A DNA stretch of 64,000 nucleotides from Candidatus Latescibacterota bacterium (lineage in GTDB: Bacteria; Latescibacterota; UBA2968; UBA8231): positions 6,368,001-6,432,000 of the forward strand of contig OZ242214.1 of NCBI GenBank assembly GCA_965206595.1, given 5' to 3'. The notes under the pieces were generated by a model. That model did no database searches and was not told the DNA's origin. It saw nothing but the letters and a program-made list of their open reading frames with translations. Position numbers and translations under genes: made by a program. Positions 1-38,062 of this stretch are shown in pieces; positions within the stretch are counted from its first letter, which is position 1, and every line of letters starts with the position of its first letter.

Positions 1-2
1 CC

Positions 3-1088
3 CGCAGCGGCAACACCGCGGACCAGAACCTCTACTGGCAGTATTCCGGGCGCGGCGAGAAGATCCCGGTGCAGGACGCCATGACGTACAAGCGCCTGAA
101 GCTCGGGGAGCGGGCCGGCACCACCTACGACCGGGACAACTGGACCTTCTGGTCGGCGCCCTACGATTTCGCCGACAGCTCCGGGACTCCGGTGGTCAGC
201 CTCGGGCCGCGGCAGTTCTTCCAGTTCAAGGTCGACGTGATTCCCTTCAACGAGGCGGGGGGTGAGCTCGGTTTCCTCGAGTTCCGCATGTCGGAGCCGC
301 TCGCCTCCGGCCTGATCGGCGAGGTCTCCCCAAACCGGGTGAACGTCGCCGAGTCCTCGGCCTTCACCTATTACCTGCAGCCGTTCCTGGGATCCGACGC
401 CTCCGGATTCGACGGCCTGGAGATGTCGACGTCGTCGATAATCAACGGCGTGCGCGCCCTGCGCATAGGGGAGAACGACCGGCCCTTCGAGGTCAGGCCC
501 CTCGACGAGAACGGCGTCGAGCTGTCCGGTTTTCCGGCCAACCGGTTCGAGCTGACCTTCACCGACACCCGGCTGGTGGCGGCCGACAGCGGCACCCCGG
601 TCGAGATCGACTTCGACGCCCGCGTGTTGAGGTCGGGGGCGGCCTTCGAGGCGCGGGTCTTCGACTCGACGCAACCTCTGGCTGTGCGCCAGAAGATCGC
701 CGCCGGGGACGCGAACAATCTAGTCGAGGGGAACACCCTTTCGGTCTCGACCACGGCGAAGGCCGAGCTGCTGCTGCTGACACAGGTCTCGCCGGCCGTC
801 ATCACCCCGAACGGCGACCGCGTCAACGACCTGGCGCGGATATCCTACGACCTGCTCGAGATCATCGGCGCCGCCGAGGTCAGCGTCGAGATAAGCGATC
901 TGTCCGGGCGGGTGGTGAGGCAGGTATACGAAGGCCAGGACCTGGTCGGCAACTACGCGCGCGAGTGGGACGGCAGGAACGATGCCGGCGAGGCGGTCCC
1001 TCCGGGGATCTACCTGTACCGGATCAAGGTCGACAACGACCAGGACCGGGAAGCCGTCAGCCTCGGGTTGGTGAACGTGGTCTACTGA
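3..1088 (+). CDS. 5'-truncated large secreted protein with C-terminal FlgD-Ig / T9SS type-B-like (TPNGDxxND) domain
   Basis: Frame is open from position 3 (RSGNTADQNLYWQY...). Motifs WTFWSAPY, GPRQFFQF, GEVSP, PAVITPNGDRVND, ISDLSGRVVR, WDGRNDAGEAVPPGIYLYRI are shared with the next two genes. Confidence 0.85.
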   Translation, partial: RSGNTADQNLYWQYSGRGEKIPVQDAMTYKRLKLGERAGTTYDRDNWTFWSAPYDFADSSGTPVVSLGPRQFFQFKVDVIPFNEAGGELGFLEFRMSEPLASGLIGEVSPNRVNVAESSAFTYYLQPFLGSDASGFDGLEMSTSSIINGVRALRIGENDRPFEVRPLDENGVELSGFPANRFELTFTDTRLVAADSGTPVEIDFDARVLRSGAAFEARVFDSTQPLAVRQKIAAGDANNLVEGNTLSVSTTAKAELLLLTQVSPAVITPNGDRVNDLARISYDLLEIIGAAEVSVEISDLSGRVVRQVYEGQDLVGNYAREWDGRNDAGEAVPPGIYLYRIKVDNDQDREAVSLGLVNVVY

Positions 1089-1233
1089 ACGATCCCCCAC
1101 CGGGCTCACCGGTCCGCGGGGGCGTTCGCGACCCGGTCCGTGCGATCACATCTTGCGACGGCCGTTGCGCGTGCCGGAGCTCCAGCCTGACGCAGGTTGG
1201 CCAACCCGGCGGCCTTTCCAGGGGGGACCGGCG

Positions 1234-3796
1234 ATGGATCGATCAGCGACAAAGGCAAGCCCGACGGCTCACGCCGCGGCACCCTGGCTGACGGCGCTGG
1301 CCGGCCTCTTCATGGCGGCGATTCCCCTTTCCTCTGAACAGGGCTACACCTTCCACGACAACCAGATCGTCGCCGAGACGCAGGAGCACTGGGAAGCCTG
1401 GGACGTCAATGCCGGCATCTCCTGGATAACCCCCGAGGGATCGGTCTCCCCCCGTTTCGTGCGCAAGCGGGTCAACGCCGCCCTGGAGGCTCCGCGGTAC
1501 GAGGTCAAAGTCCGGGGCGGGGTGTTGGCGGGTTCCAACGAGCACCTCGCCCACCACCTGATCGACGGCGATCCCGGCACCTACTGGGAGCCGGATCTCG
1601 ACCGGCCCCCTGAGGACTGGTGGATCCAGCTCCGCCTCGGCCGCCTCGTCGTGGTCGAGAAGATCGTCCTGCGCTTCGTCGAGGAGGACGCCGGGGAACC
1701 TTTCCTGCAGTTCGACGCCCTCGGATGGCGGTTTCCCCCTCCCTGGGGCAGCGTCCAGTACACCCTGCTGGGGACGGATGTCGCCAGGTTCTGGTCCCTG
1801 TACAAGACCGACAGACCGAACCGGACCCAGCGCGTATTCGAGATCCAGCCATTGGCAACAACCTCCAGCAGCGAGGAGTTCCTGGGTGAACCGCTGGACG
1901 TCCTCCACATCCTGGTCGCCGACAGCGCCGCCGACCGCCTGCGCGAGGTTGCGCCCGGCACGTACGAAGCCCTGCCGGAGGACACCAGGGGCGCCGTGGA
2001 ATACTACCGCAAGGGGGGCGTCCGTCAGACCCTGACGACGCGGGAGAGCTACGAGGCTTTGGCTCCGGAGCGGCAGGGGCGGATACGGTACTACCAGCGC
2101 GAGCGTCCGCGCTTGGCGGAAATGGAGGTCTGGACGTGGGGCGACAACCTCAACTACAACCGCGGGAAGCAAGGCGGCAAGACGTTCCTGTGGCTCGACG
2201 TACAGCAGGAGGAGTCTAGAGGCAAGATCTACTCGCTCGCAAACGTGGTGACGGACGCCAACTACGCCACCGGGCCGAGCTTATGGTCGAGAGGAACCAC
2301 CTATTTCCTCGAAGATCTCGGCACCCAGTTCTGGGTGGACAGGGTGCAGTACCTGACCCAGAGAATCCTGGGTCAGCGGGCTGGAAATTTCCGACGGGAC
2401 CCTCGCCCCCGATGGCTCCGTCGAGTGGACGGAGGTGGTCGAAGGGAAACCGTACCGTCCCGGGGGACAGGATTTATACCAACAATCGAGCGCCTTCCAA
2501 ATCGAGCCGACCCGGGTCCGCTATCTGCGCTCGCGCATCAGGTCTCGGGGCGCCATCCTCGAGGTGATGATCTACGGGGAGGGGTACGTCGCCGAGGTGG
2601 CGCTGACCTCCGAACCGATCGAGATGCGCCGGCACAAGAGCTTCGTTTCCATCGAGTGGGAGGCGGACACGCCTGTGGGCACCTGGGTCGAGATCGCCAC
2701 CCGGACCGGCGACCGGCTGCGCGAGCAGCTGACCTACCACGACAGCGACGGCCTCGAGGTCACTCCGGAACGGTACAAGAAGAGACTGCCCCGGCCGAAA
2801 CAGGGGGAGATCGTCTCCCGCATGGTGCCGGACAGCGACTGGAGCCCGTGGACCCGTCCCTACCTGGAATCCGGGGAAGAGGTCAAGTCGCCGCTGCGGA
2901 AGTACCTGCAGATCCGCGCCCGGGTCATGGCGGACACGGTCAGCAAGTACGGTTCTCCGGCTTCCCTGCACGCCATTCGCGTGAACCTGACGGATCAGTA
3001 CGCCGAAGAGCTGATCGGCGAGGTGTGGCCCCGCTTCGTCGAGAAGATCGGCGAACCGGAGGAGCGCTCTTTCTTCATTCGGCCGAGGTTCGCCCGAAGC
3101 GACCAGAGCTTCGACCAGTTCCGCATCACGGCGACGGCTCCGACGACGATGGAGCTGCTCGAGGTGCGCTCCGGCACGCTGGAGGATTTCGCCAGCGGGG
3201 AGACGAAGCGCTGGCTGCCGGAGGAGCTGGAGATCACCGCGGCCGCCTCCGACACCTTGTTGTTCCGGCTGCCGTCCCCGATCCGGCAGGGGGTGGAGCT
3301 GGTCGAGGTGCGCATCAGGCCGACCATATACGGTCACTCGGCCGCTTTCGAGGCGGGGGTGAAGGCGTCGGGGGCCGCGGGAACCTGGCAGAGGGTGGAG
3401 ATCGGCAACGCCGCGGACCATGCGCCGAGCGAGTCCAACGTCGTCGTCGCTCTGGGAGACAACGCCGCGCTGACTGCCCTGCGGGTCGAGCCTTCGGTAG
3501 TGACGCCGAACGGGGACGGCGTCAACGACGCCGCGGTGTTCCGCTTCAGCGTCAACCGGCTGCACTCGGAAACGGCGGTTGAGCTTTCGATCTACGACCT
3601 GGGTGGCAGGTTGGTGTACCGTCGCCTGGCCGAGCGCGCCGACCCGCGTGGCCGCTACGCCATCGAGTGGCGGGGAGAGGGGATGAAGGGGGTGCTCATT
3701 CCCCCCGGGACCTACCTCGCCCGGGTCGAGCTGCCGGCCTACTCGGAGCGGGCGCAGCAGACCGCCCTGACCCGGATCCTGCGCGTGGCCTACTGA
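1234..3796 (+). CDS. Secreted discoidin(F5/8C)-like + FlgD-Ig CTD protein, about 853 aa, interrupted by a +1 frameshift at 2357-2380
   Basis: Signal peptide after ATG 1234; HLIDGDPGTYW..WWIQLRLGRLVVVEKIVLRF discoidin-like motif. Sensible reading continues in the next frame (LEISDGTLAPDGSVEW...WSPWTRPY...GEVWP...VTPNGDGVND...PPGTYLARV). Confidence 0.8.
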
Positions 3797-5666
3797 TGGC
3801 GAATCCGCGGTACCGGTGGGTGCTCGTCCTGTACTTCGGCCTCCTGCCGGAAAGTTCGCCCGCGGTAACGATCTACCGCTTCGGCGGCGGCGACCTGCCC
3901 CCGCCTGCGGAAAGCGCCCGGGCAGACGTGGAATTCCTGCAGATGGACTGGGGGGAGATCGGCGCCGAGAGCGGCGGGGAACAGGCAGGCATCCGCATGG
4001 AGAAGGGGACCATCGAGCCTCGGAAGCTCGACCCGGGAAGGAACGTCGCCGCCCTGCTCTGGAAGGGAGACCCGTCGCTCGAGCTGCTGTTCGACAACCA
4101 CCCCGGCACCGCCTGGATCGCCGACGCGTACAAGTGCGGCGATACGTTCGCGAGCCGCTGCGAAGGCCGCTACGGCCCGCGCGGGATCCTCAACATCGAC
4201 TTCGCCGACAGGGTCCTGATAAACCGGATTCGACTGTTCTCGGGCAGCAGGGACAATCCCCTGGAAATCGTGAGGAACTTCGGGCTCTCCCTCTCGCCGA
4301 CCCGTCTCGGAAGCAACAGGACCCTGCTTTTTCCCTTCCTGGTGGAGGTGGTGGAAAACGAGGACAGGAGGCTGGAGCTGGAGTTCCCGGCCGACCTGCC
4401 CGCGGCGTCGGCGCTGCAGATCGTCATGAGCGACCACGCCCAGCCCTGGAAGATCGGCGAGATCCAGATATACGCGCGGGGGGTGGCGGGAAAGGCGACG
4501 TACACCGCCGACATCCTCGACTTCGGGCAGCCGGCGGTGTGGGGGGAGATGTGCTGGTCCCTGAAGCAGGAACCGGAGTCCCTCCTCCATGTCCGCACCC
4601 GCAACGGCGGCAGCTCGCAGCTGTTCCGCTACTGGAAATACACCGGCATGGGGGATCACAAGGTCGAGGTGTCGCAGGAGGAGTACGAGCAGCTGCGCAA
4701 GAGTCAGCGGGCCGAGCCGACCTACAACTACGACAGCTGGAACCCGTGGACGTCCCGTTTCCACCTGGTGAACGAGGGGGGCCAGCCGCCGGTCTTCCCG
4801 GTCCCCCGCCGCAGCTTCCAGTTCAGTCTCGAGTTCGTCTCCTCCGGCGAAACCGGCACCCGGCTCGAGTTCCTCGAGTTTCGCGCTTCCGTGGCCGCGG
4901 TGACCCGTATCGTGGGAGAGCTCGACCCGATCAAGGTGAAGGCCGGGGCCATGACCCGCTTCACCTACGCCCTCAAGCCGCGCATCCACGAGCGCGACCC
5001 CGGGTTCGACCTTTTGGAAATCAGGGCGGTGGCGGCGCGTATCGACGGCGTGCACGCGGTGCTGATCGACGGCGCCGAGGCGCCCTTCCGGGTCCTGGAG
5101 CTCGAGGAGCGGCGCGCCGTTCTCGGCATACCCCGGCTAGCCGGGCTCGCCTACTCCGACGCCATCGTCGAGGTGGTGTTCGACGCCCAGGTGCTGCGCT
5201 TCGGCGGCGCCTTCAGGGGTCAGATCGCCGACAGCGGGCGGCCGTACGACGTGCCGCAGCCGGTGCTGGCCGGGGACGCCATCGACGAGGCCTTCGGGGA
5301 CCGGGTATGGATCGAGACCTCGATCACCGTCGAGTCCGCCCTGGCGGCGCGCGCCGAGCCCGCGGCGTTCACCCCGAACGGAGACGGCTTCAACGACGAG
5401 GTCGAGATCGCCTACGACCTCGTCGAAATCACCCGGCCCGTCGTTGTCGAGGTGGAGATACGGGACCTCGCAGGCCGGCGGGTGCGGCTGCTGCATTCCG
5501 GCCAGGAGGGGATCGGCAGCTACCGGCGCTGGTGGGACGGCCGGCTCGACGACGGCACGCCGGCGGCACGCCGGCGCCCCCCGGCATCTACCTGTACCGC
5601 GTGACGACGACGGATGTCGCCGGCGATCGCTTTGCCGAGATCGGCCCCCTGCAGGTCGTCTACTGA
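3796..5666 (+). CDS. Third paralogue (discoidin-like + FlgD-Ig CTD), about 619 aa, frameshifted near the C-terminus by an 11-bp tandem duplication
   Basis: ATG overlaps the previous TGA. Motifs LFDNHPGTAW, WNPWTSRF, GELDP, FTPNGDGFND, WDGRLDDG. Removing one GGCACGCCGGC copy (5554-5575) restores DGTPAPPGIYLYRV...LQVVY*. Confidence 0.82.
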
Positions 5667-8434
5667 GCGCCGGCACCCCCGGCGCCTCTTCTCCGCGGGG
5701 TTGCTCCTGGCGGTCTGCGCCGGGAGCGCCGCAGCGCAGCCGGACTACGGCAACCGGCTGGGGCAGCGCAGCGCCGGGGAGGTGGAGTTCCGTCCCTTCG
5801 GGGCGACGGTCGCCTCCGAGCACCTCGACCCCTCGGTGCGGAAGTGGTACCTGCCGCAGGAACTGCTGCACGAGTACAAGTGGCGGCCCTGGGAGACGCT
5901 CAACTACGCCAGGGACCGCTACCGGCGATACCGCTCGATCCTCTCGGAAGGAACCTACCTGTACGACCGCTTCGGCAAGTACCTGACCAGGGGCTGGGTG
6001 ATCTACGACTGGACGGAGGAGCGGCCGAGAGAAGCCGAGGGAAGCCGCATCCTGCCGCCTCAGTGGCCGCTCTCCGGCCTCAACATCGTGTCCGACCGCA
6101 AGGGCCGGCACCAGATGCGCGTCACCATCGGCACCAACATCCCGGTGAACCTGACGCCGATGACGTTTCGCAAGTCCGCCTTCGACGGCACGTTGGTCGA
6201 CTATCAGTCGGACCGGTTTTCAGCCACCGGGCTGGTGTCGCGCGTCACCCACCCGGGATTCGGATCGGTTCCCGCGTACGAGCAGATCTCCTTCGCCAAC
6301 ATCACCAGCCTGTTCGGCGGAAGGGCCGAGGCCGCCCTCGGCGACCGCTTCACCCTGGGTGCGACCTTCGTCAACGCCCACCACGGCAGGACGGTGCTGT
6401 CGAGCTTCCAGGGAAGCCCGTTCACGGGGGCGCTCACCGCAAGCCAGCACCAGGCGCAGATCACGGAGATCGTCCTCCGCATCAGCGACGATTCCCCGGC
6501 GGATCCCGGCGGGGCCATTCTCGTGTACGACGACGTCGAGATCACCACGCGGCTCGGGCACGTCGACACCGTGCTCGTCGGCAGCCGCATCGGCTTCAGG
6601 CCCGAAAAGGAAGGGGGGTTCACAAGGGAGGGAGTGAGGGTGGCGGAAGGGGGGGACGCGATACTGCTGCGCTACGTCCTGGCCGACGACCCGGAAACCC
6701 CGGGACTCGAGGGACTGCAGGGGATGATCGGCGACGCCGAGATCGCCGCCAACATACGCAACGTCCGCTTCAGGCTGTTCCTGGTCGACGACTACAAGGT
6801 CGAGGTGACCTCGAGCAACCAGACCAACGCCGAGGGGAAAGCGGTCTTTCTCACGGTGACGCGGGCGCGCCGCAATTCCCGGGACGGCTCCAACAAGAAG
6901 CAGGTGGTGTTCGACTACGGCCTGCCGACGGCCAACCAGATCGCCGGCGTCACCGCGGAGGCGCGCGACCTGCTGGGGTTCGATCTCTACGGCGAGCTCG
7001 ACGTCAACCACCGCTACAGACAGTTCCCCTACCGCCGCAGCGAGACCCACCGGGCGCGCTCCGGGATCCTCGGGGACGAGACCGCCCTGGCCTGGATGGC
7101 CAATCTCGCCAGGGACTCGTTCCCCTGGTTCTGCCTCGTCGAGGCCTTCTACATGGACGAGGATTACAGCACGAGCTCCTTCGTCGCCGACGGGGCCGGC
7201 AACGTCGACTACGAGGACCAGACCCGGAGCCTGTACGATTTCGTCGACGACAACGACGACAACGACCGCCTGCCGGATCAGCGGCGCCTCCACCAGGACG
7301 CGCGGATCGGCGTCGAAAGGCTGAACGAGACCCTGACCGCCCAGGGGTTCGCCGACAACGCGGTATTTCCCGGATGGGACACCAACAACGACTTCATCTC
7401 CGATTTCAACCAGAACGGCAACAGGCTGCAGGAAAACCTGCTTCCCGACTACGCGGAGCCGTTTCTGCGCTACTCGGTGGACCGCCCGGAATTCCTTTTC
7501 GGGATCGACCTCAACAACAACGGATGGATCGACCGCTTCGAGAACGACAACGAGCCCGACTATCCCTACAAGAGCGACCGCAAGGGGTACAACGCGTACC
7601 TGCGCAGGCATTTCACCCCGGAGCTCAACCTGACCGTCGGGCGCACGCGCCAGTCCCTGATTTCGGACGACCGGGAGAGCGCGACGAGCTACGCCATCCT
7701 GGCGCTCGAACGGGATTTCTCCGGCATCGGGCTTGTCCGGGTATTCGACATGCTCAAGAGAGCGGAGGACGATATCCCGGACGATCTCGTCCAGTGGGTG
7801 CAGCCGCCGCAGACCCGCGGCTTCCTCGAGCCGTTCGCCGATCCGCTGGCCGCCCGGGGACACCTGGATCAACACCGCCTTCCTCGGATTCGAGAGGCGC
7901 GCCGACCTCGGGGTCAACCTCGCCGCCAAGCTCAAGTACGAGAGCGTGAGACAGGCCTCGGACGGGAGCGGCCACAAGCGGTATACGCGGCTGCTCGGGC
8001 TCGTGAACAAGGCCTCCTGGATCGCGAGCATCGGCAACCTGACGGTGGAGCCGAGACTGAAAAGCGCCCTGCTGAGAGACGACACCCCGTACTCCATCGG
8101 CAAATCCGAGCGCGACCAGTGGACGGGGACCGCCGACATCCTGTTGCGGTACCCGTTCCTGCGCAGGAGCCAGGTGGAGTTGGGGGTCGAGCAGACCTGG
8201 TTCGGCGACAGTCTCGTGAAGGAGGAGGGGCTTTCCCGGGGAGAGCCGACCGGCGACTACCGCAACCTCGTGGTCGCCGTGCAGGTAACCAACCGCAGCG
8301 ACTACCTGGGGTACCGGGTCAACACGCAGTTCGGCTACATGATGAACTGGAGAAGCGCGGAAAAGTACCGGAGGGAGCCGCTGTCCGAGACCGGCGGGTT
8401 GAGCTTTCTCACGATCTACGCGGCGCTCCGGTGA
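5614..8434 (+). CDS. Large predicted outer-membrane beta-barrel protein with acidic Ca-binding-type (TSP3/DxDxNG-like) repeats, about 939 aa, +1 frameshift at 7853-7859; start uncertain
   Basis: Signal peptide RRLFSAGLLLAVCAGSAAA; many amphipathic beta-hairpins; DFVDDNDDNDRLPD, WDTNNDFISD and IDLNNNGWID repeats. Continues as DTWINTAFLGF...GGLSFLTIYAALR* in ORF 7733..8434. Confidence 0.72.
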
Positions 8435-11311: not shown

Positions 11312-13639
11312 ATGCTGCTCCCGCTGATTATCGCCGCTGCGGCGGCGGCCGCCCAGGCCGCCGGATCCCCGCCGTTCACCCTGGTGCAGGCGTTCCCCAC
11401 TCTGCCGGTAGAGTCCCCGGTCTTCATGGGACCGTCCGGGGACGGCAGCGGCCGTCTCTTCCTCGCGGAGAAATCAGGCCTGATCCGGGTGTTCCACCCG
11501 GCGCGGCAGGACACCGGCGCCGTCTTCATCGACCTGCAGCCCCAGGCGCGCGACTTCAGGCCGGAGACCGGCCTCCTCGGGCTGGCCTTCCATCCCGGGT
11601 TCGCCGCCAACGGGCGCTTCTTCGTGCACTACTCCGGGGAGAGCTTCCGCACCGTGCTGTCGGAGTTCCGCGTTTCCGGGGAGGACCCGGACCGCGCCGA
11701 CCCGGAGGAGCGGATCCGCCTCGTGGTTTCCCAGCCGACAGACAGCCACAACGGCGGCCACATCGAGTTCGGCCCCGACGGCTACCTCTACATGGGCCTC
11801 GGAGACGGCGGCGGCGTGGAGGGAGTGGAACGCTACGATCACGGCCAGGACCTCACCACCCTTCTCGGGACGATCCTGCGGCTCGACGTCGACGCCGGCG
11901 GCGAGGGGTACGGCATTCCCGCGGACAACCCGTTCGCCGGCAACGAGCGCGGCTGGCGCGAGGAGATATGGGCCTTCGGCCTGCGCAATCCCTGGCGTTT
12001 CAGCTTCGACCCGTTCTCCGGGCTGATCTGGGTGGGGGACGTCGGCGAGAAGGACCGCGAAGAGATCGACCTCGTCGAGCGGGGCGGCAACTACGGCTGG
12101 GCGCGCATGGAGGGGACCCTGTGCCGGGACGCGGACGGCTGTGACGACGGTCTCATCCCGCCGGTGTTCGAGTACGGGCGCGAGGAGGGGGTGGCCGTGA
12201 TCGGGGGGTTCGTGTACCAGGGAAGCCGCTGGCCGCAGCTGGCCGGCCTCTACCTGTTCGGCGACTTCGGCTCGCGCAAGGTCTGGGCCCTGCGCCGGGA
12301 CGGGGAGGCCTGGAGCAGCGAGCTGCTGGCGGTGGCCGACGACCACGTCCTCGCCTTCGGGCGGGACGCCGCGGACGAGCTGTACGTGCTGGCGAGCAAT
12401 GCCGTGTACCGGCTCGAGTCCGCGGCAGGGCGGGAACTGCCGCCGCCGCGGCTGTCGCAGACCGGGGTCTTCTCCAGCATGGCCTCACAGGAGCCGGCCG
12501 CCGGGGTGGCGCCGTACGAGGTCAACGCCCCGCTCTGGTCGGACGGCGCCGGCAAGCGGCGCTACCTCGTGCTGCCGGAGGGGGGGCGCATCCGCTTCCG
12601 GAGCGGCGGCGCCTGGGAGCTTCCGAACGGGACCGTGCTCGTCAAGAGCTTCTACGCCGGAGAGCGGATCGCCGAGACGCGGCTGCTGATCAAGCGCTCC
12701 GGCTACCCGGGATGGGACGGCTACTCCTACAAATGGAATGACGAGGAGACCGAGGCCTTCCTGCTTGAGGTGGCCGAGACCGCGGAGTACGCGGTCTCCT
12801 CGCCGGACGGGGCCCGCATCCACAGCCACTACTTCCCGTCGCGCGGCCAGTGCGGCGACTGCCACACGCCGGCGTCCGGGTACGTGCTCGGCCTGCGCAC
12901 GGGGCAGATGAACCGCGGCGGCCGGATCGAGAGCTGGGAACGGGACGGGCTGTTCGCCGGCGAGCTGCCGCCCCCCGGGACCTGGGCGAAGTGGCCTGAG
13001 CCCGCGGACGAGAGCGTCCCCCTGGAGCCGCGGGCTCGCGCCTACCTCGCCGCCAACTGCGCCAACTGCCATCGCCCGGGCCACGGCATCCGCGCCGAGT
13101 TCGACCTGCGCTTCGACACGCCGCTGACAGAGACAGGGATCCTCGAGCGCGCCCGGCTCGGAAATATTGGAGTGCACGAGGCAAAGGTCGTGGAGCCGGG
13201 GGAGCCGGGGCGCTCCCTGCTGTACCTGCGCATGCTCGAAACCGGCAGGTGGCGCATGCCGCCGCTGGCGACCGCCCTGATCGACACGCAGGGGGCGCGG
13301 CTGGTGAGCCGCTGGATCGAGCGCCTCGGGGATCCGACCGCAATCGAGGTGGCCCTGGGCGGGGAGCTTCTTCCGCGGGAGTTCGCCCTGCTGCCGCCGT
13401 ATCCCAACCCGGCCAACGCAAGCCTGTCGATACCGTTCGCTCTCGGCGCTTTGGGGGATGCCCGGCTGGAGGTGTTCAGCCTCGCGGGCCAACGGGTCGA
13501 GACGCTGCTGGAGGGAACGACTCCGGCCGGCCGCCACTTGCTGCGCTGGGACAGCGCAGGCAACGCGAGCGGGGTCTACGTGGTCCGCCTGATGGCGGGG
13601 AGCCGGATGCAGTCGCGCAAGGTCATGCTGCTGCGCTGA
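11312..13639 (+). CDS. Secreted PQQ-dependent sugar (glucose/sorbosone) dehydrogenase fused to a diheme cytochrome c and a T9SS type-A-like CTD
   Basis: Signal peptide; HNGGHIEFGPDGYLYMGLGDGG, WAFGLRNPWRFSFD; PYEVNAPLWSDGA; heme motifs CGDCH and CANCH; C-terminus PYPNPAN...VFSLAGQRV...ASGVYVVRL...RKVMLLR. Confidence 0.9.
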   Translation: MLLPLIIAAAAAAAQAAGSPPFTLVQAFPTLPVESPVFMGPSGDGSGRLFLAEKSGLIRVFHPARQDTGAVFIDLQPQARDFRPETGLLGLAFHPGFAANGRFFVHYSGESFRTVLSEFRVSGEDPDRADPEERIRLVVSQPTDSHNGGHIEFGPDGYLYMGLGDGGGVEGVERYDHGQDLTTLLGTILRLDVDAGGEGYGIPADNPFAGNERGWREEIWAFGLRNPWRFSFDPFSGLIWVGDVGEKDREEIDLVERGGNYGWARMEGTLCRDADGCDDGLIPPVFEYGREEGVAVIGGFVYQGSRWPQLAGLYLFGDFGSRKVWALRRDGEAWSSELLAVADDHVLAFGRDAADELYVLASNAVYRLESAAGRELPPPRLSQTGVFSSMASQEPAAGVAPYEVNAPLWSDGAGKRRYLVLPEGGRIRFRSGGAWELPNGTVLVKSFYAGERIAETRLLIKRSGYPGWDGYSYKWNDEETEAFLLEVAETAEYAVSSPDGARIHSHYFPSRGQCGDCHTPASGYVLGLRTGQMNRGGRIESWERDGLFAGELPPPGTWAKWPEPADESVPLEPRARAYLAANCANCHRPGHGIRAEFDLRFDTPLTETGILERARLGNIGVHEAKVVEPGEPGRSLLYLRMLETGRWRMPPLATALIDTQGARLVSRWIERLGDPTAIEVALGGELLPREFALLPPYPNPANASLSIPFALGALGDARLEVFSLAGQRVETLLEGTTPAGRHLLRWDSAGNASGVYVVRLMAGSRMQSRKVMLLR

Positions 13640-35332: not shown

Positions 35333-38062
35333 CTAGAACAGCCCGGAGTACTTGATCGTCATGATGTAGTCCTGGGTCCCTTTACGTTTGACCAGTGGCC
35401 TGGAATCGTAGATATCCCACCCGAACCCGAAGAGGAGCCGGTCCTTGTAGGCGGACAGGGCGATCCCGAGGCTGACGGCAATGGCGTTGTCCGTCGACAG
35501 CGCCTCCAGCACGTTCCCGATGGCGGTCAGGTGGATGCCGGACACCGACGGGTTGTCGGGATTGTGCCATCCCGCAAAAGCGATTCCAGGCAGCCCGATA
35601 AGCCTTTCGGTCTCTCCTTCCACCTTTTTTCCGTCGCGCCCGGTGTAGTCGCGGCCCGGGCGGATCGTCAGGAAGGAGACCAGGGGCTTTGCTTCGAACT
35701 CCCACTTCCAGCCCCCCACTTCGAACACCTGCGATATCGCCTGCGGAGCGGCGCCGGGGTGGCTGCGCGTCGTGATCTTGAGGCGGACCTGCTTCATTCC
35801 GGCTTCCTCAAGGCGGAGGTTGAGGGCCTCGGCCGGCACCAGACTCTGGTCGTCGTCGTAGATGTTGACCTCGAGCCGTTTCGAAGGGCCTACAGGACCG
35901 TACCCCTCGTCCAGCTCGACCCACTCCACCTCCATCCGCCTCCCGACGAGGGCGGCTTTCAAGGAGTCCGGTACGGAGAAAGCAAGATCGATGCGGGTCC
36001 CGTCGACGACGACGACCGGGGTACCGGTCCAGGGCACCGGCAGGGGTCGCGACCGCGATTTCCTCGAGGCCGTCACCGCGGACACCTGCGTCAGGTAGAT
36101 CGTCCCCAGGGCTCCGTGGCCCTTCAGTTTGACAGGCTGGGCTTTGTCGCGCACGTCGTTGCTCACCAGCAGGATCTCAGCGAAATGGTCGCCGAGGGAC
36201 CGGGGGGAGAACGAAACCTGCAGTCTGGTCGACTCTTCGGGCTGCAGCGAGAAGGACGCCGGTTCCAGGGAGGCCTCGCGACTCAAGGTGCTGGCGGCGA
36301 CCCGCAGGGCGGTGTCGCCGATGTTGGTGGCGACCAGGGTTCGCGTCCCGGTCTCCCCTAGGACGACGTAGCCGAAATCCAGGGGCCCGGAGGGGTGCAA
36401 CTCGATCTCGGCGGCGATGCCGGTACCGTTGAGGAGGATGTCGAAGGTCTCGCTCCCCTCCTCCCAGAAGCCTTCGAGGCGCAAGGTGCCGCTGCGCGGC
36501 CCGCGAAGCGTCGGCGTGAAGGTGACCTTGAGGGGCAACGACCGCAGGCTGTTGGCGGGCAGTCCGTACTCGTCGTCGGCCGACACCTGCGTGTACACGG
36601 TGAAATCGGAGCTCGTAGACAGCACCCGCGTAACGGTGAAATCGGCGTTGCCGACGTTGGTCAGGTCGATGACGGCATGGCTGGCCTCTCCGACCGGCAC
36701 GCGCCCGAACTCAGCCGCGGTCGGGCTCAGCTCCAGGTAGCGCCCCGTCCCGGTCAGAGGCAGCACCGTGCGCCCTTTTTCGGTCGCGACCTCGAGCAGG
36801 GCATCGCGAAGTCCCCTCGCCTGCGGGCTGAAGCTGAGACCTGCGCTCACACTTTCACCCGGCTGCAGCAGGTACGAGCTGCTCTCGACCCCGAACTCCT
36901 CCCCTTCCCCTTTCACCTCGACGGAGACCCTGAAAGCGCTGCCGCCGCGGTTCCAGATCAACAGCGGCTGTCTCAAGGTCTTGCCGATGGCGGCGCTGCC
37001 CATATCGATCGCCCCGTCCCCCACCACGACGATTTCCGGGGGGCCGACGAAGGCGGTTCCCTTCAGGGGTAGCGAAATCCGGGGGCGTTCAGGGTCGCTG
37101 GTAGCCAGGGACAGGGTTCCCGTGGACACCCCCGGAAAGGCGGGATTGAAGGCGACCTCGAAATCGCCGCGTCCTCCCGGTTTCAGAATCAGCGTGTCAT
37201 TGGCGGCAGAAAGAGAGAAGCTCTCTCCCGACAGCGCGAGACCCGAGATCTCGAGGGGGGCGCGGCCATGGTTGAGAAGGGTGACCGCGGCGCTGCTCCG
37301 GCGGCCGGCCTCGAGACGGCCGAAATCGAGGCCGACTTCCGGCAGGGGGGAGACTGCGGCGGCCGCGGCCAACCCCTCTCCGCCTACCTCCACCTCCACC
37401 CTGTCAGGGATCATTTCCGGGGCCTCGACGATCAGGCGGTCGACCACGAGGCCGTCCGTTGGCGGGGTGAATTCGAGCGTCACCACGACGGATGCACCAG
37501 GCTCCAGGGAGAGCTGGTCGGGGGGGAGGGCGGCGAACGGTCCCGTGCCGCTGGCGAGGTAGATACTGTCGATCTGCAGCGGCACCGGACCGCTGTTGCT
37601 CAGCAGGAGAGTGCGCCTCGCGGACGCACCCACGGCGACGGAGTCGAACTCGATTTCCAGGGGATCGAGAACCAGCCCGGGGCGCGCCGCGGTCGCCGTG
37701 ACAGGTACGGCGAGACCGTCAGAGCCGAACAGCTGTTCCACCTCGACGGCGATCTCGGACCGGTAGACACCCGGCTTCGTGGCCGCGAAAGCGATCGCGA
37801 TCTCCCGCTCACTCCCCTTCTCGATGGTGAGGGACTCCACCGGCATGGAGAAGGGCTCCCCTGCGGAAAGGCGTACCTCGATGGCCTCGTGGGCTTTGTT
37901 GACCAGGGTGATCTTGGATTCGACGCGAAGTCCGACCTGGACGGTTCCGAAGTCGACGCTCCTGGGTCGCACGGAAACCTGTTCGGCACCGACGCTCGCG
38001 GCGAGCGCGAGCAAGGTCGCGACGAATCGGGTACTGCGATGGAGTGAGGGGGCCGGACCCAT
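35333..38062 (-). CDS. Surface protein with six choice-of-anchor-D / ASH-HYDIN Ig-like repeats and a beta-rich C-terminal domain
   Basis: Signal peptide; six (D/E)FGxVxxG...LxNxG...LxPG repeats; ends YIMTIKYSGLF. Confidence 0.88.
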   Translation of the reverse strand: MGPAPSLHRSTRFVATLLALAASVGAEQVSVRPRSVDFGTVQVGLRVESKITLVNKAHEAIEVRLSAGEPFSMPVESLTIEKGSEREIAIAFAATKPGVYRSEIAVEVEQLFGSDGLAVPVTATAARPGLVLDPLEIEFDSVAVGASARRTLLLSNSGPVPLQIDSIYLASGTGPFAALPPDQLSLEPGASVVVTLEFTPPTDGLVVDRLIVEAPEMIPDRVEVEVGGEGLAAAAAVSPLPEVGLDFGRLEAGRRSSAAVTLLNHGRAPLEISGLALSGESFSLSAANDTLILKPGGRGDFEVAFNPAFPGVSTGTLSLATSDPERPRISLPLKGTAFVGPPEIVVVGDGAIDMGSAAIGKTLRQPLLIWNRGGSAFRVSVEVKGEGEEFGVESSSYLLQPGESVSAGLSFSPQARGLRDALLEVATEKGRTVLPLTGTGRYLELSPTAAEFGRVPVGEASHAVIDLTNVGNADFTVTRVLSTSSDFTVYTQVSADDEYGLPANSLRSLPLKVTFTPTLRGPRSGTLRLEGFWEEGSETFDILLNGTGIAAEIELHPSGPLDFGYVVLGETGTRTLVATNIGDTALRVAASTLSREASLEPASFSLQPEESTRLQVSFSPRSLGDHFAEILLVSNDVRDKAQPVKLKGHGALGTIYLTQVSAVTASRKSRSRPLPVPWTGTPVVVVDGTRIDLAFSVPDSLKAALVGRRMEVEWVELDEGYGPVGPSKRLEVNIYDDDQSLVPAEALNLRLEEAGMKQVRLKITTRSHPGAAPQAISQVFEVGGWKWEFEAKPLVSFLTIRPGRDYTGRDGKKVEGETERLIGLPGIAFAGWHNPDNPSVSGIHLTAIGNVLEALSTDNAIAVSLGIALSAYKDRLLFGFGWDIYDSRPLVKRKGTQDYIMTIKYSGLF

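What the first reader, a model, noticed from the sequence alone, without database searches (positions are those of the whole stretch)
1..8434. Candidate undescribed surface-display module: tandem discoidin/type-B-CTD-like paralogues with an adjacent large beta-barrel
Seen: three consecutive paralogues share WxxW(S/T)xx(Y/F), a short xQ(F/I) strand motif, GE(V/L)xP and a terminal P-x-(V/A)-x-TPNGDxxND...DLxGR.V...W.G...PPG.Y domain. Two have discoidin-like N-termini. They are followed, overlapping, by a 939-aa signal-peptide protein made of amphipathic hairpins with acidic loops and a final strand FLTIYAAL. Established: TPNGDGxND marks Bacteroidota T9SS type-B (CHU_C) CTDs, whose genes lie next to cognate PorP/SprF barrels of roughly 300 aa. 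Inference: this is an analogous cargo-plus-dedicated-barrel unit outside Bacteroidota, using a much larger barrel as shuttle or anchor, or a SusCD-like glycan-capture complex.
Basis: partly seen in the sequence, partly recalled or inferred. Interest (0 to 1): 0.85.

Follow-up and report, generated by a model that had tools for sequence, protein, structure and literature searches.

The report
Lectin cargo genes with giant barrel
This stretch is one broken copy of a gene cassette repeated many times in Latescibacterota genomes, in which sugar-binding surface proteins carrying a type IX secretion tail sit next to a large outer-membrane barrel from an unnamed family that probably holds them on the cell surface.

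Summary
Window 1-8434 carries three paralogous secreted proteins (A, B, C). Each has a discoidin/CBM32-like head, beta-sandwich domains and a CHU_C/FlgD_ig-type C-terminal domain. A 939-aa signal-peptide protein (D) follows. D's 92%-identical orthologue folds as a roughly 25-26-strand beta-barrel, and every top structural match is a membrane barrel. D has no Pfam, NCBIfam or PDB sequence match.

The link between cargo and barrel is strong:
- The genome holds 32 D genes in 15 loci.
- 33 of 61 CHU_C tails lie within 10 kb of a D gene, against 2 of 35 tails of the other class.
- In 80 loci from 45 other assemblies, 120 of 128 D genes follow a cargo gene or another D.
- Across 151 genomes of the phylum, SprA is in 146 and D in 94. 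Full-length cargo relatives occur only where D does.

No PorP/SprF gene was found. B, C and D each carry a frame-breaking indel that related strains lack, so this copy is decaying.

My best reading (0.5) is that D is the outer-membrane partner or hub of these lectins, forming glycan-capture cassettes. Binding is untested.

The parts
1..1088 (+). Gene A, an A/C-type cargo. This is the 3' part, 361 of about 665 aa; the start codon lies 909 bases upstream of the window. The gene is intact.
   Evidence: ORF; full ORF in the genome. Pfam CHU_C 38.8 and FlgD_ig 39.3 bits. The orthologue in L009 (3394-5391) is 665 aa.
792..1052 (+). C-terminal sorting domain of A. It is the CHU_C/FlgD_ig type, carries TPNGD..ND and ends ..VNVVY.
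   Evidence: The CHU_C hit at G000 6368792-6369052 equals window 792-1052. TIGR04131 scores 21.3 (cut-off 35) and TIGR04183 23.2 (cut-off 23).
1153..3796 (+). Gene B, the B-type cargo with a discoidin-like N-half. The reading frame is broken at about 2370 by one extra base.
   Evidence: Two frames. F5_F8_type_C 22.9 bits and CHU_C 32.8 bits. The intact 874-aa orthologue is L009 5467-8091. One base at 2370 is left out in runs X18 and X20 but present in X15.
3491..3751 (+). C-terminal sorting domain of B.
   Evidence: The CHU_C hit at G000 6371491-6371751.
3796..5666 (+). Gene C, an A/C-type cargo and the gene directly upstream of the barrel. Its tail is broken by an 11-base tandem duplication.
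   Evidence: It is 32.6% identical to A. The intact 619-aa orthologue L009 8091-9947 scores CHU_C 28.7 and FlgD_ig 36.0. The orthologue's model has pLDDT 86.4.
5553..5575 (+). GGCACGCCGGC repeated twice. This frame-breaking 11-base duplication sits inside the CTD of C.
   Evidence: Sequence. Eleven bases are left out at 5553 in contigs of runs X18 and X20. They are present in X15, whose contig matches window 2000-6940 with 0 differences.
5614..8434 (+). Gene D, the 939-aa signal-peptide outer-membrane beta-barrel of an unnamed family (tandem-position subtype II). One extra base at about 7856 breaks the frame at codon 748.
   Evidence: No Pfam or NCBIfam hit. Model of the 92%-identical orthologue: pLDDT 75.8, pTM 0.77. 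Only membrane barrels among the top structural matches. One base is left out at 7856 in X18 and X20.
7136..7580 (+). The most conserved part of D: acidic D/N-rich loop motifs (VDDNDDNDR, DTNNDFISDFNQ, DLNNNGWIDRFEND). They are inferred to be extracellular.
   Evidence: Invariant columns D546-D555, D589-N601 and D632-E643 in 84 homologues. Word depth spikes 10- to 30-fold here in four runs. The placement is my inference from the strand order.

Best explanation
Window 1-8434 is one decaying copy of a multi-copy envelope cassette found in one phylum, labelled Latescibacterota in most record titles.

The cassette encodes three paralogous secreted lectin-like proteins, A, B and C. Each has a signal peptide, a discoidin/CBM32-fold head, beta-sandwich domains and a C-terminal sorting domain of a distinct class. 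That class matches CHU_C/FlgD_ig, carries a TPNGDG motif and ends in ..V(A/V)Y. A large outer-membrane beta-barrel, D, of about 25-26 strands follows. D belongs to a family with no name.

Proposed mechanism:
1. A, B and C cross the inner membrane by Sec. They cross the outer membrane through the SprA translocon, recognised by their tails. This step is inferred.
2. On the surface they are taken over and held by D. The contact is proposed to run through D's strongly conserved extracellular acidic loops and its inserted beta domain. D would thus play the part that the small 14-strand PorP/SprF barrels play for type B cargo in Bacteroidota. This step is inferred from gene order, phyletic coupling and the absence of detectable PorP.
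3. The resulting barrel-plus-lectin complex captures glycans. In fuller cassettes a CBM9-like protein, a DUF6785 inner-membrane protein and once a GH20 enzyme ride along, so D may also pass the captured substrate inwards. This step is also inferred.

In this genome B, C and D each carry a frame-breaking indel, so this particular copy is probably no longer functional.
For: Anatomy and domains.

Cargo fold. Residues 80-228 match the galactose oxidase N-domain (Z 11.4, rmsd 2.6), a fucolectin (Z 11.7) and CBM32 (Z 10.8). The tail, residues 513-619, matches the PorZ CTD (Z 10.2, rmsd 2.7, 90 aligned, 23% identity) and the PorU C-terminus (Z 13.1).

Barrel.
- Model: pLDDT 75.8, pTM 0.77, long antiparallel hairpins from residue 156 to 938.
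- All listed Foldseek matches are outer-membrane barrels.
- All 50 listed rows of the Foldseek-independent search are membrane barrels.

Two tail classes in the genome.
- Of 61 CHU_C hits, 51 end in Y and 46 carry P[ND]G[DN].
- Of 35 other tails, all 35 end in R or K and none carries the motif.

Linkage in the genome.
- There are 32 D genes in 15 loci.
- 33 of 61 CHU_C tails lie within 10 kb of a D gene, a zone covering 5.7% of the genome, against 2 of 35 other tails.
- 11 of 32 D genes have a CHU_C tail ending within 400 bases upstream, and 13 of 32 follow another D.

Linkage elsewhere. In 80 loci from 45 assemblies I identified 133 D genes, 128 of them with upstream sequence. Of those, 72 follow a cargo gene, 48 follow a D and 8 follow something else.

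Phylum sample of 151 genomes.
- SprA is in 146 and D in 94.
- The cargo profile reaches E <= 1e-40 in 80 of the 94 D-positive genomes and in 0 of the 57 D-negative ones.
- D-negative families f2, f3 and f4 (51 genomes) have 0-5 weak CHU_C matches each. All 63 genomes of family f1 have 7 to at least 32.

Secretion parts. SprA 488 bits, PorU 618 bits and a PorV-like gene at 141 bits are present. No PorP/SprF was found.

Extended cassette. A CBM9-like gene is in 8 of 15 own loci and 64 of 80 foreign loci. DUF6785 is in 5 of 15 own and 28 of 80 foreign loci. A GH20 gene occurs in one own locus.

Background. A porP/sprF-like gene directly downstream of type B cargo genes, and anchoring by PorP-like barrels, are described in PMC12618676 (introduction read) and PMC9143113 (passages read).

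Decay. All three indels are absent from contigs of two other studies but present in a 0-difference contig of run X15.
Against: - No contact between D and any cargo domain has been shown.
- D is three times the size of PorP/SprF and shares no detectable sequence similarity with it.
- Many loci hold 2-4 tandem D genes, which a simple one-cargo-one-shuttle picture does not need.
- 28 of 61 CHU_C tails lie more than 10 kb from any D gene.
- The tails fail the curated type B model: TIGR04131 scores 16-21 bits against a cut-off of 35. Their predicted fold is the Ig sandwich known from type A tails, so they could be handled by PorV/PorU like other cargo.
- GldL, GldM and GldN were not detected and GldK only weakly. 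How, or whether, SprA is powered here is therefore unknown. Those models also rang in no control genome, so their absence is not proven.
- The phyletic coupling rests on few independent contrasts, mainly f1 against f2/f3/f4 and f8, because related genomes are not independent.
- The barrel model has two long low-confidence stretches (94-154 and 584-616). I could not inspect coordinates, so barrel closure and strand number are read from the secondary-structure string only.
Confidence: 0.5

Rival explanations
1. D is chiefly a substrate channel, a TonB-independent counterpart of SusC or a very large specific porin. The lectins are fixed to the surface by the general PorV/PorU route. On this reading, adjacency reflects a shared job in glycan uptake, not binding of the tail by D.
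For: - Cassettes are multi-copy, like polysaccharide utilisation loci.
- Cargo heads have a lectin fold.
- A CBM9-like gene, a DUF6785 polytopic membrane protein and once a GH20 enzyme share the strand with D.
- The tail fold equals the PorZ/PorU tails.
- PorU and a PorV-like gene are present.
- Partial structural matches include CymA, maltoporin and polysaccharide export barrels.
Against: - It does not explain why exactly the Y-ending, TPNGDG tail class travels with D, in the genome (33 of 61 against 2 of 35) and across families.
- D has no Plug or TonB-dependent receptor match.
- No CAZyme lies beside the window's own copy.
- GH20 was found in 1 of 15 own loci and in 0 of 80 foreign loci.
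Confidence: 0.25
2. The cassette builds a structural surface coat or adhesin array, with D as its outer-membrane base in the manner of Deinococcus SlpA. It has no role in nutrient capture.
For: - The three best Foldseek matches by E-value include two SlpA assemblies (7zgx, 8agd), and 8ae1 is fourth. 421-436 residues align at Z 11.2-12.3.
- 3 of 10 distant family members give sub-threshold SlpA_C matches; the best is 30.2 bits against a cut-off of 35.
- Cargo resembles adhesin or biofilm-matrix Ig arrays such as RbmA and C5a peptidase Fn domains.
Against: - TM-scores to SlpA are only 0.18-0.28.
- The window's D and its close orthologue have no SlpA_C match.
- No SLH domain or coiled coil was found.
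- Fifteen diverged loci per genome fit substrate diversity better than a single coat.
Confidence: 0.1
3. The adjacency is incidental. D is an unrelated outer-membrane protein whose genes happen to be co-amplified with a cargo family.
For: - Both families are expanded and could hitch-hike in segmental duplications.
- 28 of 61 CHU_C tails are far from any D gene.
Against: - Same-strand order with a median apparent gap of 80 bases holds across 45 assemblies.
- Full-length cargo relatives reach E <= 1e-40 in 80 of 94 D-positive genomes and in 0 of 57 D-negative ones.
Confidence: 0.05

Closest known systems
Type B CTD cargo with a cognate PorP/SprF-like barrel in Bacteroidota T9SS (SprB-SprF, PG1035-PorP)
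   Same: - A secreted protein has a C-terminal sorting domain that matches Pfam CHU_C and carries TPNGDG.
- The gene for an outer-membrane barrel lies directly downstream on the same strand.
- There are many cargo-barrel pairs per genome, and some orphan cargo.
- A separate tail class coexists in the same genome.
- The SprA translocon is present (PMC12618676, PMC9143113).
   Different: - The barrel is 939 aa with about 25-26 strands, not about 300 aa with 14 strands, and has no PorP_SprF or TIGR03519 match.
- Barrels are often tandem, in two position-specific subtypes.
- The tail misses the TIGR04131 cut-off and is predicted as a 7-strand Ig sandwich.
- The organism is not a Bacteroidota, and GldL, GldM and GldN were not detected.
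Polysaccharide utilisation loci of Bacteroidota (SusC/SusD with SusE/F-type surface glycan-binding proteins)
   Same: - Many diverged cassettes per genome.
- Each pairs a large outer-membrane barrel with several surface proteins built from carbohydrate-binding-type and Ig-like beta-sandwich domains.
- A CBM-like protein, a membrane protein and sometimes a glycoside hydrolase are co-located.
   Different: - D has no TonB-dependent receptor or Plug domain, and no SusD-like gene was seen.
- The surface proteins carry T9SS-type tails rather than lipoprotein signals.
- Enzymes are rare in the loci I examined.
Very large outer-membrane barrels: Deinococcus SlpA, MtrB, LptD
   Same: They share size class and all-beta hairpin architecture, and they give the best whole-chain structural matches.
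   Different: - TM-scores are 0.16-0.28.
- A profile search against PDB sequences gave no match.
- There is no SLH domain, no cytochrome partner and no LptD N-terminal jelly-roll match.

Membership tests
T9SS type B sorting domain (Pfam CHU_C PF13585 / NCBIfam TIGR04131) | Score over the curated Pfam CHU_C cut-off (27 bits) | tested here: met
   A 38.8, B 32.8 and the intact orthologue of C 28.7 bits. The broken C of the window scores only 15.3.
T9SS type B sorting domain (Pfam CHU_C PF13585 / NCBIfam TIGR04131) | Score over the curated TIGR04131 cut-off (35 bits) | tested here: not met
   A 21.3, B 16.1 (orthologue 17.2), orthologue of C 19.1.
T9SS type B sorting domain (Pfam CHU_C PF13585 / NCBIfam TIGR04131) | A PorP/SprF-family gene directly downstream or elsewhere in the genome | tested here: not met
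   TIGR03519 gave 0 matches. PF11751 gave one 16.7-bit match, inside the PorV-like gene. TIGR03519 also rang in no control genome, so absence is not proven. The downstream gene is D instead.
T9SS type B sorting domain (Pfam CHU_C PF13585 / NCBIfam TIGR04131) | Secretion through SprA that depends on a cognate barrel and not on PorV | not testable with these tools
   This needs genetics or biochemistry.
T9SS type A sorting domain (TIGR04183 / PF18962) | HMM score over the cut-off and a 7-strand Ig sandwich | tested here: inconclusive
   TIGR04183 scores 23.2 against a cut-off of 23 for A only. The fold matches the PorZ tail at Z 10.2, rmsd 2.7. But the tails end in Y and carry TPNGDG, unlike the genome's 35 other tails, which all end in R or K.
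PorP/SprF outer-membrane shuttle or anchor (PF11751, TIGR03519) | Family HMM match and a 14-strand FadL-type barrel of about 300 aa | tested here: not met
   D and P0001 have no hit. D is 939 aa with about 25 long strands. The 14-strand description comes from PMC9143113.
PorP/SprF outer-membrane shuttle or anchor (PF11751, TIGR03519) | Gene placed directly after the gene of a CHU_C-type cargo | tested here: met
   Of 128 D genes with upstream sequence in foreign loci, 72 follow a cargo gene and 48 follow another D. In the own genome the figures are 11 of 32 and 13 of 32.
PorP/SprF outer-membrane shuttle or anchor (PF11751, TIGR03519) | Binds its cargo's C-terminal domain | not testable with these tools
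   This needs pull-down, cross-linking or a structure.
SusC-type TonB-dependent transporter | Plug and TonB_dep_Rec domains, with a SusD partner gene | tested here: not met
   D or its orthologue has no Pfam match at E <= 0.1 to 1. No SusD-like gene turned up among the flanking genes I scanned.
SlpA_C barrel (PF21620) | HMM score over the cut-off (35 bits) | tested here: not met
   No match for D or P0001. 3 of 10 distant family members scored 16.8-30.2 bits, all below the cut-off. Fold matches to SlpA have TM 0.18-0.28.
Discoidin / F5_F8 type C / CBM32 fold (cargo head) | HMM match or a clear domain-level structural match | tested here: met
   - B: F5_F8_type_C 22.9 bits, below the 28.2 cut-off.
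- Orthologue of C, residues 80-228: galactose oxidase N-domain Z 11.4 (rmsd 2.6, 122 aligned), fucolectin Z 11.7, CBM32 Z 10.8.
The feature is met by fold, not by HMM.

The most novel reading that the evidence does not exclude
The Y-ending tail (..VxV(A/V)Y, an alternating hydrophobic strand with a terminal aromatic, like the insertion signal of barrel proteins) may act as a donor strand. It would dock into or complete the D barrel, which by my count of the model's secondary structure has an odd number of long strands (25). If so, Latescibacterota anchor secreted lectins by strand complementation to a giant barrel. The 30-50 cassettes per genome would then be a T9SS-fed, TonB-independent counterpart of polysaccharide utilisation loci, with D serving as both dock and conduit.
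Probability: 0.1. Interest if true: 0.9.

Novelty: new variant of a known kind. Interest (0 to 1): 0.65.

Why it matters
Work on how type IX cargo is sorted and held on the surface has been done only in Bacteroidota. There, small PorP/SprF barrels serve the type B class.

This window shows a second solution in another phylum. SprA is present almost everywhere in that phylum. On top of it sits an accessory pair: a distinct tail class and a giant barrel from an unnamed family. The pair appears and disappears together, and where present it is amplified to dozens of copies per genome.

If the barrel is the partner of these lectins, three things follow:
- It gives a testable model for tail-class recognition outside Bacteroidota.
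- It gives a function to a family of at least 977 sequence clusters now labelled hypothetical.
- It points to how an uncultured, polysaccharide-associated phylum may capture substrates without SusCD.

The finding also corrects annotation. NCBI names some of the cargo 'gliding motility-associated C-terminal domain-containing protein', while the barrels carry no name at all.

Tried and rejected
Steps that gave no answer or led nowhere:
- Complex prediction of the mature barrel orthologue (898 aa, 85-row alignment) with the last 100 residues of the neighbouring cargo orthologue (46-row alignment) scored 0.00 in two runs. The tool's verdict was 'no answer' and the controls were not run. I do not count this either way.
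- A profile of 84 D homologues against all PDB sequences found 0 matches at E <= 10.
- Pfam and NCBIfam scans of D, of its orthologue and of 10 distant members found no family over its cut-off.
- The ESM Atlas returned 30 clusters, none with a Pfam family. The nearest named cluster (DUF6029, score 0.89) is below the level the tool calls more than a lead.
- No single structural family stands out for D. PorV, PorQ and PorP do not appear among the listed rows, which does not exclude them.
- DUF6785 has no PDB sequence match, no NCBIfam match and no paper.

Literature searches that found nothing on this system:
- 'latescibacter' with 'type IX secretion': 0 papers.
- 'latescibacteria' with 'T9SS': 0 papers.
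- 'T9SS' with 'Fibrobacteres' and 'Gemmatimonadetes': 0 papers.
- 'Latescibacterota' with 'outer membrane': 12 papers. I judged them unrelated from the listing only.
- 'type B CTD' with 'PorP': 31 papers. All 12 listed concern Bacteroidota.

Ideas I considered and dropped:
- That the frameshifts are assembly errors. The contig of run X15 matches window 2000-6940 and 7545-8400 with 0 differences and 0 gaps. X15 may be the sample the genome was built from, so this is read-level support, not independent support.
- That D occurs in Gemmatimonadota or 'Handelsmanbacteria'. Four such labelled assemblies give match coordinates identical to genomes placed in the window's own family in the phylum sample. 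The one labelled Bryobacterales has D on a single contig.
- That SprA's position 5 kb from a D locus is meaningful. It is seen in the same genus only.

I could not see model coordinates, so barrel closure, pore size and plug position were not measured. 

Full report
ANATOMY. The window is bases 6368001-6432000 of a 7.05-Mb single-contig genome of about 66% G+C. Four genes on the + strand fill 1-8434.
- A occupies 3-1088. Its start lies 909 bases upstream of the window, and the whole gene encodes about 665 aa.
- B occupies 1153-3796.
- C occupies 3796-5666.
- D occupies 5614-8434.

A and C are full-length paralogues, 32.6% identical over 598 aa. The C-terminal 400-470 residues of B are homologous to both (26.1% and 22.9%), while its N-terminal 400 residues are different. 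They coincide with invariant or nearly invariant columns in an alignment of 46 family members.

THE COPY IS BROKEN.
- B changes frame at about 2370.
- The tail of C is interrupted by a tandem duplication of the 11 bases GGCACGCCGGC at about 5553-5575.
- D changes frame at codon 748, about 7856.

The orthologous locus of a related assembly (L009, proteins 92-93% identical) has all four genes intact: 665, 874, 619 and 939 aa. I laid public contigs on window 2000-8400. Run X15 holds 0.99 of the sampled words and may be the source sample. It matches 2000-6940 and 7545-8400 with 0 differences and 0 gaps. Runs X18 and X20 come from two other studies and are about 97% identical. They lack exactly the three indels: 1 base at 2370, 11 bases at 5553 and 1 base at 7856. 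So the breaks are in the reads. They are specific to this strain and hit three neighbouring genes, which marks a cassette under relaxed selection.

THE TAILS.
- Pfam CHU_C and FlgD_ig are matched over their cut-offs.
- The curated type B model TIGR04131 is not: 16-21 bits against 35.
- A just touches the type A model TIGR04183: 23.2 bits against 23.

In the model of the intact C orthologue (pLDDT 86.4) the tail is a seven-strand sandwich. It superposes on the tail of PorZ (Z 10.2, rmsd 2.7, 90 aligned, 23% identity) and on the C-terminus of PorU.

The genome has two sharply separate tail classes. Of 61 CHU_C hits, 51 end in tyrosine (..VAY or ..VVY) and 46 carry P[ND]G[DN]. Of 35 further tails found only through the PorU model's C-terminal part, all 35 end in R or K and none has the motif. 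A neighbour in the window, at 11312-13639, carries a glucose/sorbosone dehydrogenase domain plus a Por_Secre_tail match at 24.6 bits. It is an example of the second class.

THE CARGO BODY. There is no enzyme domain. Residues 80-228 of the C type have the discoidin/F5_F8-type-C/CBM32/F-lectin fold: galactose oxidase N-domain Z 11.4 (rmsd 2.6), fucolectin Z 11.7, CBM32 Z 10.8, and a GH92 accessory domain Z 12.2. The rest is a series of Ig/FnIII-like sandwiches, as in adhesins and matrix proteins. B has a sub-threshold F5_F8_type_C match. These are lectin-like surface proteins.

THE BARREL. D and its relatives have no Pfam, NCBIfam or PDB sequence match. Among the 120 best of 577 homologues, none has a Pfam domain. 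Every name given by a source is 'hypothetical protein', and the organism labels that appear are Latescibacteria or Latescibacterota. A profile search of 1.84 billion cluster representatives finds 977 at E <= 0.001 and 700 at 1e-10.

AlphaFold2 on the 939-aa orthologue with 84 sequences gives pLDDT 75.8 and pTM 0.77. The model shows:
- a signal-peptide helix;
- a conserved but low-confidence N-terminal stretch (residues 94-154 below pLDDT 50);
- about 25 long antiparallel strands from residue 156 to 938;
- an inserted beta domain at about 285-420;
- a second region around 515-655, partly low-confidence (584-616 below pLDDT 50), that holds the most conserved columns of the family.

That last region carries three acidic D/N-rich motifs. 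One of them, DLNNNGWIDRFE, fits the EF-hand/dockerin calcium-loop pattern as I recall it.

Foldseek lists only outer-membrane barrels. SlpA, MtrB and LptD come first, with TM 0.16-0.28. The second-look aligner and the Foldseek-independent search of 48,161 chains likewise list only membrane barrels, at Z 8.7-13.9, and no family stands out.

If the C-terminus is periplasmic, as in known barrel proteins (my knowledge), counting hairpins backwards from the C-terminus puts both the insert and the acidic region outside the cell. This is inference, because I could not see coordinates.

LINKAGE IN THIS GENOME. tblastn finds 32 D genes in 15 loci. Twenty-one are 37-59% identical to the window's D, which is counted among them. 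Eleven are 26-30% identical. The cargo C-terminal region has about 60-70 hits and the B-type head 19.
- 33 of 61 CHU_C tails lie within 10 kb of a D gene, a zone covering 5.7% of the genome. Only 2 of the 35 other tails do.
- 11 of 32 D genes have a CHU_C tail ending within 400 bases upstream on the same strand, and 13 of 32 follow another D.
- Four of the remaining eight, the window's own among them, have a cargo-family hit directly upstream.
- 28 of 61 CHU_C tails are more than 10 kb from any D.

LINKAGE ELSEWHERE. The best 80 loci come from 45 assemblies. In them I identified 133 D genes, 128 with upstream sequence. Of those, 72 follow a cargo gene, 48 follow another D and 8 follow something else. 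The median apparent gap is 80 bases.

Assemblies labelled Gemmatimonadota, Gemmatimonas or Handelsmanbacteria gave match coordinates identical to genomes of the window's own family in the phylum sample. Those labels therefore do not widen the range.

In a sample of 151 genomes of the phylum:
- SprA is in 146, including 30 of 30, 19 of 19 and 2 of 2 genomes in families f2, f3 and f4.
- D is in 94: 63 of 63 in f1, but 0 of 30, 0 of 19 and 0 of 2 in f2, f3 and f4, and 1 of 5 in f8.
- The cargo profile reaches E <= 1e-40 in 80 of the 94 D-positive genomes and in none of the 57 D-negative ones, where the best is 9.3e-20, the level of a tail alone.
- CHU_C gives 7 to at least 32 matches in every f1 genome. 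It gives 0-5 weak ones (best E 1.6e-6) in f2, f3 and f4, and 14 of those 51 genomes have none.

Related genomes are not independent, so this amounts to a few contrasts, not 151.

SECRETION PARTS. SprA scores 488 bits, or 615 with its neighbour (cut-off 200). PorU scores 618 bits (cut-off 420). A PorV-like gene next to PorU scores 141 bits, below its cut-off of 250. No PorP/SprF was found. No GldL, GldM or GldN was found, and GldK appears only as a 100-bit match of a kind that also occurs in unrelated control genomes. TIGR03519 and the GldL, GldM and GldN models rang in no control genome, so their silence is weak evidence.

THE FULLER CASSETTE. Other loci add further genes.
- A secreted protein of about 300 aa with no Pfam match. 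The protein atlas places it beside clusters in which 13%, 37% and 94% of members carry CBM9_1. It is in 8 of 15 own loci and 64 of 80 foreign loci, usually as the first gene.
- A polytopic DUF6785/DUF6784 membrane protein, with about 40 places in the genome. It is in 5 of 15 own and 28 of 80 foreign loci, often as the last gene on the same strand.
- A GH20 enzyme, in one own locus.

A frequent order is CBM9-like, A, B, C, D, D. Another is CBM9-like, cargo, D, cargo, B, cargo, DUF6785. The window's copy has only A, B, C and one D. Its flanks, a PQQ dehydrogenase and a GSDH protein, look unrelated.

READING. Four things are shown:
- a conserved, amplified cassette;
- a barrel fold;
- a lectin fold;
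- a T9SS-type tail of a distinct class whose distribution follows the barrel.

Three things are inferred:
- the tails are exported through SprA;
- D binds them;
- the complex captures glycans.

I commit to D as the cargo's outer-membrane partner or hub, at 0.5. My reasons are that the gene order copies the type B cargo-sprF rule (PMC12618676, introduction). PorP-like barrels are reported to anchor such cargo (PMC9143113, passages). No PorP match was found here. The tail class and D come and go together. And D's outward-facing parts are its most conserved, which is unusual for barrel loops and suggests a conserved ligand such as the tail.

The main rival, at 0.25, is that D is only the channel of a glycan uptake unit and the lectins are fixed by PorV/PorU. 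The two readings are not exclusive.

COMPARISON AND NOVELTY. The system works like a type B cargo-PorP pair and looks like a polysaccharide utilisation locus, but it belongs to neither. D fails the PorP and SusC family tests, and the tail fails TIGR04131. I found no paper on it. I rate it a new variant of a known kind, built around a new protein family.

LIMITS.
- No binding evidence.
- No model coordinates.
- The organisms are uncultured.
- Annotations in public records are sparse.
- The copy in this window is a pseudogene cluster, so any experiment should use an intact cassette.

Noticed in passing
window 2370, 5553-5575, 7856; also 7097: Three adjacent genes each carry a private frame-breaking indel that two related populations lack (runs X18, X20). 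X18 in turn has an extra G behind 7097 in one 353-base contig at depth 12.2. That would break D there, which suggests this cassette family decays repeatedly.
   Followed up: partly
window 11312-13639 (+): A glucose/sorbosone dehydrogenase protein with a type-A-like tail (Por_Secre_tail 24.6 bits, ends ..VMLLR). It is an example of the genome's second tail class, which is not linked to D.
   Followed up: partly
G000 327185-328105, 933050-973 and about 65 other places; L010-L088: A family of secreted proteins of about 300 aa with no Pfam match. Protein-language-model neighbours are CBM9_1-like. It is amplified to about 65 places in this genome and is usually the first gene of a cassette in other loci.
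   Followed up: partly
G000 909491-911527 and about 40 other places; 28 of 80 foreign loci: A polytopic membrane protein, DUF6785 plus DUF6784, is also amplified and often closes the cassette on the same strand. It has no PDB or NCBIfam match and no paper.
   Followed up: partly
G000 tandem D pairs, e.g. 6667532-6673031, 4187658-4193382: Tandem barrels come in two position-specific subtypes. In 6 of 6 pairs the second gene is closer to the window's D and aligns through residue 736-748. The first aligns only to residue 724 and resumes after a gap. The window's D is of the second subtype, and its locus lacks the first.
   Followed up: partly
G000 3743816-3755105, 3821988-3829825, 6495252-6502717: Arrays of three or four distant D paralogues (26-30% identity) are each followed by a TPR protein of about 1100 aa. 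This may be a separate variant of the system.
   Followed up: no
whole genome G000: SprA, PorU and a PorV-like gene are present, but GldL, GldM, GldN and PorP models find nothing and GldK only a weak generic match. The genome nevertheless encodes roughly 100 tail-bearing proteins. What powers secretion here is open.
   Followed up: partly
G000 335299-338379 and 1210844-1213453: A fused MFS-like and spermine-synthase-like protein of 870-1027 aa lies directly after D in two own loci and in two foreign loci (L070, L072).
   Followed up: no
L014, L017, L028, L031, L032, L036-L038, L040, L048, L051, L053, L054, L058, L061, L080, L087: Public titles call these assemblies Gemmatimonadota, Gemmatimonadaceae, Gemmatimonas phototrophica, Handelsmanbacteria or Bryobacterales. 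Four that I checked coincide with genomes of the window's own family in the phylum sample. The Bryobacterales one has D on one contig only, which is probably a mis-binned contig.
   Followed up: partly
window 35333-38062 (-): A 908-aa protein made of HYDIN/ASH/DUF1573-type Ig-like repeats, another large beta-sandwich surface-type protein unrelated to the cassette.
   Followed up: no
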